From Eledone cirrhosa (lineage: Eukaryota): DNA of 64,000 bases. The first letter of the stretch is position 1; the number at the start of each line of letters is the position of its first letter. Shown in pieces: positions 5,743 to 58,926 of the stretch. The translations under genes were made by a program, and so were the position numbers. The notes beneath the pieces were generated by a model. That model was given only the letters and a program-made list of their open reading frames with translations, made no database searches and had not been told where the DNA came from. The stretch lies in NCBI GenBank assembly GCA_964016885.1, contig OZ024750.1, positions 32,736,001 through 32,800,000 of the forward strand. Reading direction: 5' to 3'.

Positions 5743-5799
5743 TATATATAAAACTATATGACTATCTTAATTAAATCTTAACCATTTAACATCTCAGGG

Positions 5800-6018
5800 T
5801 ATGTCATGTATCATTATATTTTGTCTGATGAGGACGTACTGTTGTACATCTGAAATATTTATAATAAAATGTAATTGATCAAAAGAACATCTATTTTATT
5901 AATATTTATATTTTAATATTAATAACTCCGGAAAATTATTTATTTTAACTGTAGAGTGCTTCCAATCTATTGTAAAACTCATTCTTTGACATAATCATTG
6001 AATATCGTTTAACACTTT
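5800..6018 (+). mobile_element. Hammerhead-bearing short repeat (family A), copy 1; Penelope-pLTR/retrozyme-like
   Basis: Colinear with 6301-6530: CTGAYGAGGACGTACTG...GAAATAT...TTTATTAATATT...AATATTAATAACTCCRGAAAA...TGTAGAGTGCTT...AATCTATTGTAAAACT; flanked by (AT)n. Confidence 0.7.
5813..5875 (+). ncRNA. Minimal type-I hammerhead ribozyme
   Basis: Stem I AUUAUAUUUUGU/AUAAAAUGUAAU (12 bp incl. two G-U); core CUGAUGA 5825-5831; stem II GGACGUAC-UGUU-GUACAUCU; GAAA 5852-5855; 2-bp stem III with AUUU loop; AUA cleavage triplet ending at 5863. Confidence 0.7.
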
Positions 6019-6026
6019 AATATATA

Positions 6027-6061
<35 letters not shown>

Positions 6062-6064
<3 letters not shown>

Positions 6065-6233
6065 AGGAGGATTCCCGCTGTATATCAGGAGATGACCACA
6101 GTTAAAAAAATGTACTCAATACGTTAGCAGAGTATAGGCAACTTTATTTTATATTAGGAATGACCTCTTCAGAACTTTCCTGGTGATTTTTTACAAACGA
6201 AACCGTTCTAGACCTGTAAAAGTCATTTCTGTA

Positions 6234-6235
<2 letters not shown>
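6062..6235. mobile_element. Repeat family B: minus copy followed by a short plus copy with a decayed hammerhead-like core
   Basis: GACCACAGT...GTACTCAATAC...GGAATGACC (minus), then CTGGTGA...CGAAACCGTTCTAGACCTGTAAAAGTCATT (plus). Confidence 0.5.
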
Positions 6236-6300
<65 letters not shown>

Positions 6301-6303
<3 letters not shown>

Positions 6304-6530
6304 TACAGAAATATTCATGTATTTTATCTGACGAGGACGTACTGAAAAAACAGCACAGTACCTTCGAAATATATATAATAAAACATATATTTTGATTATG
6401 TGAATGTCTTCATTTATTAATATTCTGAATAATATTAATAACTCCAGAAAACTTACATGTAGAGTGCTTTTAATCTATTGTAAAACTATATTCATTGAGT
6501 AATCAATGAACCATATTAATCTTTGGTTAT
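6301..6530 (+). mobile_element. Hammerhead-bearing short repeat (family A), copy 2
   Basis: Homologous to 5800-6018; preceded by (AT)n. Confidence 0.7.
6317..6386 (+). ncRNA. Minimal type-I hammerhead ribozyme
   Basis: CUGACGA 6328-6334; stem II GGACGUACUG/CAGUACCUUC (6335-6365) closed by G-C; GAAA 6366-6369; palindromic UAUAUA stem III; AUA triplet ending at 6377; stem I UUUUAU/AUAAAA. Confidence 0.65.
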
Positions 6531-6662
6531 ATATATGTCAACAGTTGTATCAATATATCTGTAACATGAACTTAATTTATGAGTTTATCATTTTCTATAG
6601 AATTTATAAAACTTACTGTTTTGTAGATAGAAAGAGATATTTTGTATGATAGACATACACAG

Positions 6663-14243: not shown

Positions 14244-15101
14244 AAAGTTATGTTGGTGCCACAACATCCAGGCCAAAACAAATGAGATCGTGTAGGTGTC
14301 ACGACAAAAAAACACACAGTCCACGCTGTAATGTGACCGTGTAGGCAACACGGTAAAAACCTCACAGCCCCACACTGTAAATGTGGTTGGTGTTAGGAAG
14401 GGCATCCAGCTGTAGAAAACATGCCAGACAGTCCACGCTGTAATGTGGCCGTGTAGACAACACGGTAAAAACCTCCCAGCCCCACACTGTAAATGTGGTT
14501 GGTGTTAGGAAGGGCATCCAACTGTAGAAAACACGCCAGACAGTCCACGCTGTAATGTGACCGTGTAGGCAACACAGTAAAAACCTCCCAGCCCCACACT
14601 GTAAATGTGGTTGGTGTTAGGAAGGGCATCCAGCTGTAGAAAACACGCCAGACAGTCCACGCTGTAATGTGACCGTGTAGGCAACACGGTAAAAACCTCA
14701 CAGTCCCACACTGTAAATGTGGTTGGTGTTAGGAAGGGCATCCAACTGTAGAAAACACGCCAGACAGTCCACGCTGTAATGTGACCGTGTAGGCAACACG
14801 GTAAAAACCTCCCAGCCCCACACTGTAAATGTGGTTGGTGTTAGGAAGGGCATCCAACTGTAGAAAACACGCCAGACAGTCCACGCTGTAATGTGACCGT
14901 GTAGGCAACACGGTAAAAACCTTCCAGCCCCACACTGTAAATGTGGTTGGTGTTAGGAAGGGCATCCAGCTGTAGAAAACCCGCCAGACAGTCCTATGCG
15001 AGCAAGACAACCACTCTTGCCTCAAGTGGGAAAACCCCCGTCCAAACCCATGCAAGCGTGGAACAGGGACGTTAAACGATGATGATGATGATGATGATGA
15101 T
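14244..15101 (+). mobile_element. SINE-related element with an internal tandem array of six 112-bp units (14317-14988)
   Basis: CAGTCCACGC at 14317, 14429, 14541, 14653, 14765 and 14877; tail CCGTCCAAACCCATGCAAGCGTGGAACAGGGACGTTAAACG(ATG)n. Confidence 0.9.
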
Positions 15102-16098: not shown

Positions 16099-17084
16099 AA
16101 GTTATGTTGGTACGACAAAATCCAGTCCGAAACAAATGACGTCGTGTAGGTGTCACGACAAAAAAAACACACAGACCAAGCTGTAATGTGGCCATGTAGG
16201 TAACATGGTAAAAACCTCCCAGTACACACTGTAAACATGGTTGGTGTTGGGAAGGGCATCCAGCCATAGAAAACCCGCCAGACGTGTAGGTGTCACGACA
16301 AAAAAAATACATAGTCCACGCTGTAATGTGGCCGTGTAGGTAACATGGTAAAACCTCCCAGTCCACACTGTAAACGTGGTTGGTGTTGGGAAGGGCACCC
16401 AGCCGTAGAAAACCCGCCAGACGTGTAGGTGTCACGACAAAAAAAATACACAGTCCACGCTGTAATGTGGTCGTATAGGTAACACAGTAAAAACCTCCCA
16501 GTCCACACTGTAAACGTGGTTGGTGTTAGGAAGGGCATCCAGCCGTAGAAAACCCGCCAGACGTGTAGGTGTCACGACAAAAAAAATACACAGTCCACGC
16601 TGTAATATGGCCACGTAGGTAACACGGTAAAAACAACCCAGTCCACACTGTAAACGTGGTTGGTGTTGGGAAGGGCACCCAGCCGTAGAAAACCCGCCAG
16701 ACGTGTAGGTGTCACGACAAAAAAAATACATAGTCCACGCTGTAATGTGGCCGTGTAGGTAACATGGTAAAACCTCCCAGTCCACACTGTAAACGTGGTT
16801 GGTGTTGGGAAGGGCACCCAGCCGTAGAAAACCCACCAGACGTGTAGGTGTCACGACAAAAAAAATACACAGTCCACGCTGTAATGTGGCCATGTAGGTA
16901 ACACAGTAAAAACCTCCCAGTCCACACTGTAAACGTTGTTGGTGTTGGGAAGGGCATCCAGCCGTAGAAAACCCGCCAGACAGTCATATACGAGCAGGAC
17001 AACCAATCTTGCCTCAAGTGGGAAAACTCCCGTCCAAACCTATGCAAGCGTGGAAGATAGACGTTAAATGATGATGATGATGAT
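16099..17084 (+). mobile_element. Paralogous SINE-related element with an internal array of six 139/140-bp units (16144-16980)
   Basis: GTGTAGGTGTCACGAC at 16144, 16284, 16423, 16563, 16703 and 16842; same leader (AAGTTATGTTGGT) and tail as 14244-15101. Confidence 0.9.
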
Positions 17085-54203: not shown

Positions 54204-55467
54204 CTAACACTAACACAAGATAAACTCTCATATTGTGACACTAACACTAGATAAACTTTCATATTGTGACACCAACACTAGATAAACTCTCATATTGTGA
54301 CACCAACACAAGATAAACTCTCATATTGTGACACTAACACTAGATAAACTCTCATATTGTGACACTAACACTAGATAAACTCTCATATTGTGACACTAAC
54401 ACTAGATAAACTCTCATATTGTGACACTAACACTAGATAAACTCTCATATTGTGACACCAACACAAGATAAACTCTCATATTGTGACACTATCACTAGAT
54501 AAACTCTCATATTGTGACACTAACACTAGATAAACTCTCATATTGTGACACTAACACTAGATAAACTCTCATATTGTGACACTAACACAAGATAAATTCT
54601 CATATTGTGACACTAACACTAGATAAACTCTCATATTGTGACACCAACACAAGATAAACTCTCATATTGTGACACTAACACTAGATCAACTCTCATATTG
54701 TGACACTAACACTAGATAAACTCTCATATTGTGACACTAACACAAGATAAACTCTCATATTGTGACACTAACACTAGATAAGCTCTCATATTGTGACACC
54801 AACACTAGATAAACTCTCATATTGTGACACCAACACTAGATAAACTCTCATATTGTGACACCAACACTAGATAAACTCTCATATTGTGAAACCAACACTA
54901 GATAAACTCTCATATTGTGACACTAACACTAGATAAACTCTCATATTGTGACACCAACATTAGATAAACTCTCATATTGTGACACTAACACAAGATAAAT
55001 TCTCATATTGTGACACTAACACTAGATAAACTCTCATATTGTGACACTAACACTAGATAAACTCTCATATTGTGACACTAACACTAAATAAACTCTCATA
55101 TTGTGACACTAACACAAGATAAATTCTCCTATTGTGACACTAACACTAGATAAACTCTCATATTGTGACACCAACACTAGATAAACTCTCATATTGTGAC
55201 ACTAACACTAGATAAACTCTCATATTGTGACACTAACACTAGATAAACTCTCATATTGTGACACTAACACTAGATAAACTCTCATATTGTGACACTAACA
55301 CAAGATAAATTCTCCTATTGTGACACTAACACTAGATAAACTCTCATATTGTGACACCAACACTAGATAAACTCTCATATTGTGACACCCACACTAGATA
55401 AACTCTCATATTGTGACACCAACACTAGATAAACTCTCATATTGTGACACCAACACTAGATAAACTC
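54204..55467. repeat. 31-bp minisatellite CACTAACACTAGATAAACTCTCATATTGTGA, about 40 copies
   Basis: Direct reading; variants CACCAAC, CACAAGA, AATTCTC. Confidence 0.97.
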
Positions 55468-55544
55468 GCACATTAACTCACATTTTATTTTTTATTAACG
55501 CATAAAAGTCCAAGATCTAAAGTTTGTATTAAGTCAGAAGGCTC

Positions 55545-58029: not shown

Positions 58030-58630
58030 CACAGAGCAGTTGAGGCTCTTCAGTTGGGACAATAACTGACAATCTCTCTAGTGCTGATGCCAAGAAAATG
58101 CACCCAGTACATCCTGTAAGGTGCTTGGCAACAGGATATGAACTCTGCTGTAGAAACCATGCCAAAAAGGGTTGCGTGGCCCCTTCAGTTGCGTAAATGG
58201 TCTGACAACCTTTCTAGTGTTGGTGACCTAAACAGTATAGTTGTAAACTGGTTGATTATGGGAAGGGTATTTAGTGGTAGAAAGCTTTCCAAACAAGGCT
58301 GTGAGGAGGACCCTTCAGTTGTGTCTAAAACATGGCAATCTCTTTAGTGATTTTTTTATGTACATGATAAACACATCCAGTAGAAACTGCGATGTGGTTG
58401 GTGACAAGAAGAACCTCCAGCTGTAGATAATTGGCCAAACAAACGATTAGGAGGATTTGGACCTTACGAGTGCTGGTGTCACCATAAAATGCACTTGGTA
58501 GAATATAAGACTATATGTAAGTTCGATGCAGGTCCACAGCCCATCTGAGAAGTCAGTAGCTCTGCTTGAGTACTGACAATTATGGAATACTTATCCAGCC
58601 ATTGTTAGCAGGAAAAACAGATGTTAAATG
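58030..58630 (+). mobile_element. Longer degenerate multi-module copy of the same family
   Basis: Repeated CTTCAGTTG and CTGTAGAAA modules; ends TTAGCAGGAAAAACAGATGTTAAATGAT. Confidence 0.55.
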
Positions 58631-58926
58631 ATAATTGTTTCAACTATTGGCACAAGGCCAGCAATTCACCAGTGTATTACTGGTACTTTATTTTATCGAC
58701 CCCGTATGGTGAAAGGCAAAGTTAACCTTGGCGGGATTTGATGATAATTGTTTCTACTTTAGGCACAAGGCCAGCAATTACCCAGTGCATTACTGGTACT
58801 TTATTTTATCGACCCCGTAAGGATGAAAGGCAAAGTCAACCTCGGCGGGATTTGAACTCGGATGGTAAAGGGACGTAACTATGCTGGAAAGCATGGTGTC
58901 CGACCCTCTACCGATACTGCCAATCC
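58629..58926 (-). mobile_element. Tandem pair of Nin-like SINEs (truncated 58629-58740 plus near full-length 58741-58926)
   Basis: TGATAATTGTTT...GGCACAAGGCCAGCAATT...TCGACCCCGTA...GGCGGGATTTG occurs twice in direct succession. Confidence 0.85.

What the first reader, a model, noticed from the sequence alone, without database searches (positions are those of the whole stretch)
6317..6386. Second hammerhead copy 503 bp downstream with a remodelled stem II but conserved core
Seen: CUGACGA differs from copy 1 only at the variable position 7. Stem II is extended to GGACGUACUG/CAGUACCUUC with a different 11-nt loop, GAAA is kept, and stem III is a perfect palindrome (UAUAUA). Pairing is retained despite sequence change, which supports a real structure. 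Two same-strand hammerheads about 0.5 kb apart could fold as a dimeric hammerhead or release a ~514-nt RNA (5864-6377), as retrozymes do; this part is inference.
Basis: partly seen in the sequence, partly recalled or inferred. Interest (0 to 1): 0.72.

Follow-up and report, generated by a model that had tools for sequence, protein, structure and literature searches.

The report
Piled-up Penelope retrotransposon hammerhead stubs
The two hammerhead motifs are in the sequence, but each is the cut-off end of a different subfamily of a known jumping gene (Hydra-group Penelope-like elements) that likely landed separately in the same TA repeat, so the 514-base stretch between them is probably an ordinary pile-up and not a working circular-RNA unit.

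Summary
The motif is real. Cores lie at 5825 and 6328, 503 bp apart, and predicted cuts after 5863 and 6377 give 514 nt. The retrozyme reading is not supported. Copy 2 is a 5'-truncated end (6313-6536) of subfamily B, with 372 exact core copies; copy 1 belongs to subfamily A, with 1,818; the lineage has 13,047 cores. In longer copies both ends lead upstream into an RT plus C-terminal GIY-YIG ORF with the Hydra-clade motifs. The natural partner hammerhead lies 4-5 kb away. The 514 nt are a mosaic of A tail, (TA)n, an older family-C stub and (TA)n; no other place among 40 scored spans it. Similar same-strand pairs occur at 205-1,052 bp. Copy 1, not copy 2, likely has the derived stem II, and its stem III has a change that weakens cross-pairing. 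Cleavage and expression are untested. This scan noted such Hydra pile-ups before, in this and other genomes.

The parts
6313..6536 (+). 5'-truncated 3' end (pLTR plus about 100-nt tail) of Hydra-clade PLE subfamily B
   Evidence: 95-99% to 39 other scored places; median 96.2% to 28 pattern-picked copies; family sequence continues upstream of 6313 in other copies into an RT-EN ORF
6317..6388 (+). Hammerhead copy 2 (type I): stem I 6317-6327/6378-6388, core 6328-6334, stem II 6335-6365 with C.C mismatch and 11-nt loop, GAA 6366-6368, palindromic stem III 6369-6376, predicted cut after A6377
   Evidence: 372 exact copies of a 36-mer from core into stem II, control 0
6435..6468 (+). Short (no-tail) end point of family B at about 6435, followed by a conserved ACUC...GAGUGCUU hairpin motif (6441-6468); likely an RT start signal (inferred)
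   Evidence: 17 of 28 B copies end here, 9 of 28 at the tail end; the motif recurs about 100 nt further on in long copies of sister subfamilies, just past the tail end
5766..6018 (+). 5'-truncated 3' end of sister subfamily A, with hammerhead copy 1 (core 5825, short stem II, predicted cut after A5863)
   Evidence: 94-96% to 39 other scored places; 1,818 exact 27-mer copies; linked to an RT-EN ORF in long copies
6020..6061 (.). (TA)n tract between A and family C; insertion target
   Evidence: 24 of 25 A and 25 of 26 B copies with a defined end are followed by (TA)n
6062..6236 (.). Older family C stub with two head-to-head arms; the right arm carries a decayed hammerhead core on + (6180-6218, CUGGUGA, A6 changed)
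   Evidence: 72-85% to 39 other scored places; arms and core read by eye against the Hydra motif table; no link to an ORF was tested
6225..6312 (.). Perfect 88-nt palindrome: 12-nt arms of local sequence around (TA)32, ending exactly at the 5' truncation of copy B
   Evidence: 1 of 157 TA runs in the window

Best explanation
The motif at 6317-6388 is the hammerhead in the 3'-end repeat of a 5'-truncated copy of a Hydra-clade Penelope-like retrotransposon (subfamily B), likely inserted on its own into a (TA)n tract beside stubs of subfamily A and family C. Shown: subfamily membership, the link to an RT + GIY-YIG ORF, two fixed 3' end points, (TA)n after the ends, and the mosaic make-up of the 514 nt. 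Inferred, by analogy with the anole PLE (PMC11167929): the element's endonuclease nicks AT-rich DNA, RT starts at one of two internal sites about 57 and 157 nt downstream of the hammerhead cut, copies back through the uncut hammerhead and falls off early (after 224 nt here). In whole elements the same segment is the leader just upstream of the ORF, and its natural partner hammerhead lies 4-5 kb away. Insertions end in (TA)n and so keep offering targets, which would make stubs pile up; the 503-bp spacing would be one draw from many. The stub has no ORF and is probably inert.
For: A and B are separate high-copy subfamilies: 1,818 and 372 exact cores, control 0; within-family median 95-96%, between about 70%; separate branches in the tree. 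Family linkage: 14 of 15 loci picked by the ORF end of a B copy carry the B hammerhead segment, 13 of them downstream on the same strand; B and A ORF pieces are mostly 70-81% identical in RT. Hydra motifs RW[K/R], DKT, CxCX5C, CxxC-E...N-CxH, no CCHH (against section 11 of PMC8557442). Partial tandem pLTR-ORF-pLTR in L122, cores 3,959 bp apart; cut-site motifs 4.6-5.2 kb apart in L113, L118, L119. Tail runs straight into the ORF leader. No second same-strand core in 29 of 29 best-match B loci. In pattern-picked loci 0 of 27 A and 3 of 28 B had one, at 852-1,023 bp, none of subfamily A, and family C was in 0 of 55. Three more same-strand pairs among the first 100 listed cores, at 205, 679 and 1,052 bp, separated by (TA)n and, in two, unrelated inserts. 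Only the window itself spans 5864-6377.
Against: Only 40 of 3,880 first-look candidates were scored, so a second copy of the 514-nt unit is not excluded outright. No intact full-length B ORF was recovered; B's link rests on broken copies. Clade placement is by motifs read from the paper, not by a tree with reference PLEs. Copy 2 keeps every core base, so it could cut if transcribed with a helper. Same-strand pairs are about 30 times commoner than uniform placement predicts (my arithmetic), which target preference explains but selection for pairs could too. Support for nesting the short stem II among long forms is moderate (88/97).
Confidence: 0.9

Rival explanations
1. The pile-up arose by chance, but read-through transcription lets the two hammerheads cut, alone with protein help or as a heterodimer, and release a 514-nt RNA with no further role.
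For: Both cores are intact and on one strand; both cut sites are followed by AUAAAA, so stem I arms are partly exchangeable. PLE hammerheads cut weakly as dimers (PMC4209133) or with the element's protein (PMC11167929).
Against: Copy 1 stem III is AUAUUUAU (23 of 24 other A loci have G there); its duplex with copy 2 scores +0.4 kcal/mol against -3.2 for the usual A form. The hammerhead fold of copy 2 is 8.5 kcal/mol above its minimum-energy fold, and an 88-nt perfect hairpin lies just upstream. No reads ending at the cut site were found for the anole PLE.
Confidence: 0.06
2. 5864-6377 is a non-LTR retrozyme monomer flanked by two hammerheads, made as a circle and copied back into the genome.
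For: Size near the reported range (150-450 bp in PMC7229834 passages; 51-972 bp in bioRxiv 10.64898/2026.07.22.740005); animal retrozymes are proposed to derive from PLE pLTRs.
Against: Not a tandem repeat (TRF finds no such period); flanking hammerheads from different subfamilies; three ages of sequence inside the unit; unit not found elsewhere among 40 scored places.
Confidence: 0.02
3. The two copies come from one local tandem duplication that later diverged, with pairing kept by selection at this locus.
For: About 190 bp of co-linear homology, 82% over aligned columns.
Against: Each copy is 94-99% like distant copies of its own subfamily and only about 70% like the other subfamily; the stem II differences are subfamily characters.
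Confidence: 0.01

Closest known systems
Hydra clade of Penelope-like elements, including Hydra-1_Obim of Octopus bimaculoides (Craig et al. 2021, PMC8557442; passages, section 11, part 2 of 59 of the supplement and searches in it seen)
   Same: Single RT + C-terminal GIY-YIG ORF, RW[K/R], DKT, CxCX5C, CxxC/CxH, no CCHH; hammerhead near the 3' end; (TA)n targets; inverted 5'-truncated copies.
   Different: Other families: the hammerhead listed for Hydra-1_Obim has different stems, and 'gaggacgtac' was not found in the supplement text (line breaks could hide a match). Units are 4-5 kb with a 1.5-1.8 kb AT-rich 3' UTR (published Hydra mostly under 3 kb); tail about 100 nt (30-40 bp given for PLEs generally); stem II has a fixed internal mismatch.
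Metazoan PLE minimal hammerheads (Cervera and de la Pena 2014, PMC4209133; parts 1-2 of 4 read)
   Same: Type I, long stem II, small palindromic stem III, most copies single and tied to truncated PLEs, close pairs usually on opposite strands, natural same-strand pairs kb apart.
   Different: No unpaired base between positions 9 and 10.1 in the best register here; G.U is commoner than G-C at 10.1-11.1 across the lineage (26 of 32), though copy 2 has G-C.
Anole Poseidon element PAc (Frangieh et al. 2024, PMC11167929; parts 1-2 of 4 read)
   Same: Two fixed 3' ends that define a tail, downstream of the hammerhead; AT-rich targets.
   Different: Other clade; in PAc the start sites lie inside the ORF, here in the leader upstream of it; nothing here is tested biochemically.
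Metazoan non-LTR retrozymes (PMC7229834, passages seen; bioRxiv 10.64898/2026.07.22.740005, parts 1-2 of 5 read)
   Same: Type I hammerheads a few hundred bases apart on one strand, low GC, no ORF.
   Different: No repeated unit, flanking motifs from two subfamilies, mosaic interior, single locus.

Membership tests
Type I hammerhead ribozyme | Core CUGANGA, GAA, A15.1-U16.1, H17 in type I order | tested here: met
   invariant columns in 32 aligned motifs
Type I hammerhead ribozyme | Helices I-III can form and are kept across relatives | tested here: met
   90.3% of cells paired, 3 pairs with two-sided change, slid controls 33-60%; the two-sided changes come mainly from one subfamily, and the number of such pairs does not exceed shuffles (394 of 500)
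Type I hammerhead ribozyme | Match to a curated Rfam hammerhead model | tested here: not met
   no hit at gathering score or E<=10
Type I hammerhead ribozyme | Self-cleavage | not testable with these tools
   needs in vitro transcription
Penelope-like element, Hydra clade | Single ORF with RT and C-terminal GIY-YIG | tested here: met
   in long genomic copies of A, B and a sister subfamily; absent from the window stubs; Pfam and PDB gave no significant hit, so domain calls rest on motifs
Penelope-like element, Hydra clade | RWK-like and DKT motifs, CxCX5C linker, CxxC and CxH around E and N, no CCHH | tested here: met
   RWR/RWK, DKT, CNCRNKSNC (A), CNCRRKSEC (B), CxxC-ET and CLH/CRH
Penelope-like element, Hydra clade | pLTR partial tandems, inverted 5' copies, optional tail | tested here: met
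Penelope-like element, Hydra clade | Insertion into (TA)n | tested here: met
   49 of 51 copies with a defined end
Penelope-like element, Hydra clade | Groups with Hydra RTs in a phylogeny | not tested
   reference sequences were seen only as supplement text
Non-LTR retrozyme | Tandem repeat units, each with a hammerhead | tested here: not met
Non-LTR retrozyme | Unit forms a dispersed family | tested here: not met
   only the window spans 5864-6377 among 40 scored of 3,880 candidates; family C beside A or B in 0 of 55 loci
Non-LTR retrozyme | Expressed as linear and circular monomer RNA | not testable with these tools
   no RNA holder listed

The most novel reading that the evidence does not exclude
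Same-strand pile-ups of Hydra stubs in (TA)n tracts, perhaps some 400 in this genome, are nurseries for retrozymes: read-through RNA cut at two unrelated hammerheads gives a 514-nt circle that re-forms a chimeric hammerhead (B core with the A stem I arm, both starting AUAAAA) and carries the A-family RT-start hairpin, so the Hydra enzyme could copy it. This locus would be a retrozyme caught before amplification.
Probability: 0.04. Interest if true: 0.6.

Novelty: new member of a known kind. Interest (0 to 1): 0.13.

Why it matters
As it stands, little: one of about 13,000 hammerhead-bearing ends of a described retrotransposon clade. It is a caution that two same-strand hammerheads 0.2-1 kb apart are common by-products in this genome and do not imply a retrozyme. 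The families are useful material: two fixed ends with a repeated hairpin motif give a ready test of internal RT initiation outside the Poseidon clade. If the chimeric circle existed, it would show a route by which retrozymes arise from PLE debris.

Tried and rejected
Rfam: no hammerhead family hit. Pfam and PDB sequence searches of the ORFs: nothing significant; 189 homologues were found, nearly all unnamed. Expression: no RNA holder listed; contigs of three runs of unknown kind were laid on copy 2 and only repeated the family picture (loose ends at 6313 and 6435). A gapped-pattern count of A-then-B pairs could not be run, so that count stays open; the 514-nt search stands in for it. Partition-function folding of 5790-6420 gave probability 0.0 for cross stem III and for copy 2 stem I, but the dimer is pseudoknotted and the program cannot draw it, so this was not counted as a test. 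First guess of Neptune or Naiad clade: rejected (C-terminal endonuclease, Hydra motifs). The fold-back at 6225-6312 as a regular mark of 5' junctions: not supported, 8 such palindromes in 1,493 TA runs of 113 loci, none at a 5' end (one search had a filter fault and missed the window's own case). Look-ups of earlier notes near this place and by sequence were blank. Searches were cut or failed part-way; one search repeats 43. Literature searches; none listed a paper on these subfamilies, which is not proof of absence. Supplements of the bioRxiv preprint were not seen.

Full report
Observation. The window is G000:C10:32736001-32800000 of a 3.0-Gb, microsatellite-rich animal assembly; earlier notes call it octopus-type, which I did not test. 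Both motifs are as described: cores at 5825 and 6328, 503 bp apart, predicted cuts after A5863 and A6377, 514 nt apart. Copy 2 has stem I 6317-6327/6378-6388, a 10-position stem II with one G.U and one C.C mismatch, an 11-nt loop and the palindrome AUAUAUAU as stem III. A descriptor finds 2 such motifs in 29.5 kb, against 0.01 in simulated sequence. Rfam has no matching model. The likeness of the two copies extends over about 190 bp (82% of 180 aligned columns), which already points to a repeat family.

Three families, not one unit. Searches of the genome with each part gave three separate repeat families. B: 6313-6536, 95-99% to the 39 best other places. A: 5766-6018, 94-96%. C: 6062-6236, 72-85%. 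Exact pattern counts are 372 for a B 36-mer and 1,818 for an A 27-mer; a looser 16-letter core pattern gives 13,047; the reversed controls give 0. In loci picked by pattern and not by score, the window copies are a median 95-96% like their own subfamily and about 70% like the other. In other copies B continues upstream of 6313, so the window copy is truncated 15 nt before the core.

What the families are. [quoted passage not shown] Of 15 loci picked with the ORF end of a B copy, 14 carry the B hammerhead segment, 13 downstream on the same strand; B and A RT pieces are mostly 70-81% identical. The proteins have RW[K/R], DKT, CxCX5C, CxxC and CxH and lack CCHH, the list that Craig et al. give for the Hydra clade (PMC8557442 section 11). 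Their supplement lists an octopus member, Hydra-1_Obim, with a different hammerhead. Pfam and PDB gave no significant hit, so the placement rests on motifs.

Anatomy and likely mechanism. Copies end at one of two points, about 57 or about 157 nt past the cut site: 19 and 6 of 27 A copies, 17 and 9 of 28 B copies (2 others each; 5 of 60 loci dropped, 4 as second arms of the same insertion and 1 without a clean match). 49 of these 51 ends are followed by (TA)n. Many have an inverted partial copy at the 5' side. In near-whole elements the tail runs on into the ORF leader, and the two hammerheads are 3,959 bp apart in L122, with cut-site motifs 4.6-5.2 kb apart in three others. An RCUC...GAGYGCUU hairpin motif lies a few bases past each end point (at +59 to +64 in both window copies and 5 of 5 long copies, at +159 to +162 in 4 of 5); earlier notes gave me this lead. 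This fits the two internal RT start sites shown for the anole element, whose hammerhead needs protein to cut and is not needed for insertion in vitro (PMC11167929). That copy 2 arose by RT starting at the outer site, passing the uncut hammerhead and stopping after 224 nt is inference.

The 514-nt idea. The interval is A tail (155 nt), (TA)n, a two-armed C stub with a decayed third hammerhead core, (TA)32, a 12-nt fold-back of local sequence and 65 nt of B. Searched whole, only the window spans it; the other 39 scored places match only the A tail and TA repeats (40 of 3,880 candidates scored). None of 29 best-match B loci has a second same-strand core. Among pattern-picked loci, 0 of 27 A and 3 of 28 B have one within 1.5 kb, at 852, 1,004 and 1,023 bp, all of other subfamilies; C is beside none of 55. 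The first 100 listed lineage cores include three same-strand pairs at 205, 679 and 1,052 bp, split by (TA)n and in two cases by unrelated inserts. About 0.1 would be expected from uniform placement, and scaling gives roughly 400 in the genome (my arithmetic). Such pairs are therefore common, of scattered spacing and mixed family.

Structure. On 32 motifs (the two window copies and 30 of the 43 found in 40 fetched stretches, chosen by hand to cover subfamilies) 90.3% of cells pair and three stem II pairs change on both sides, mostly in one subfamily; position 4 of stem II is unpaired in 32 of 32. The long stem II is the majority form. In a tree of flanks (30 rows) the short-stem A clade (100/100) sits inside a long-stem group (88/97, weak), with one short-stem row misplaced on a long branch; the short stem of copy 1 is thus probably the derived state. 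Copy 1 has U where 23 of 24 other A loci have G in stem III, which raises the cross-duplex with copy 2 from -3.2 to +0.4 kcal/mol. Against my reading: both cores are intact, PLE hammerheads can cut weakly as dimers (PMC4209133), and expression could not be examined.

Verdict. A real hammerhead motif, in the truncated end of an undescribed subfamily of a described clade. Cervera and de la Pena already report that most such motifs are single and tied to truncated PLEs. Earlier notes of this scan reached the same reading for other DNA; they are not independent support. Interest 0.13.

Noticed in passing
window 6062-6236: Older family C stub with two head-to-head arms; a third, decayed hammerhead core (CUGGUGA at 6180) on the same strand as copies 1 and 2, inside the 514-nt interval. 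Relatives show a U.U pair at the base of stem II like the Penelope-HM motifs in the Hydra table.
   Followed up: partly
window 6225-6312: Perfect 88-nt palindrome: 12 nt of local, non-family sequence copied in reverse across (TA)32, ending exactly at the 5' truncation of copy B; rare elsewhere (8 of 1,493 TA runs, none at a 5' end). Possibly a fold-back made during insertion.
   Followed up: partly
window 17533-51977: 34-kb satellite of a 52-bp G-rich unit, 681 copies, GC skew near 0.99.
   Followed up: no
window 14316-14994, 16143-16981, 54207-55474, 58628-58855: Tandem arrays of 112, 140, 31 and 113 bp; the 112- and 140-bp units share sequence with dispersed repeats seen in other loci.
   Followed up: no
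alignment A2, column 26/56 (window 6338/6362): Position 4 of stem II is an invariant C that is unpaired in 32 of 32 motifs (C.C, C.A or C.U); may be a tertiary or protein contact, or simple common descent.
   Followed up: partly
L122 (G000:C5:93425300-93435200, minus strand), also L113, L118, L033: A hairpin motif repeated just past each of the two fixed 3' ends, with an A-U / G-C swap at its base between the two repeats; candidate RT start signal.
   Followed up: partly
L076-L083, L078 3274-4926 (oriented): Other, more distant PLE-like RT ORFs lie within a few kb of A and B copies, another sign of clustering.
   Followed up: no
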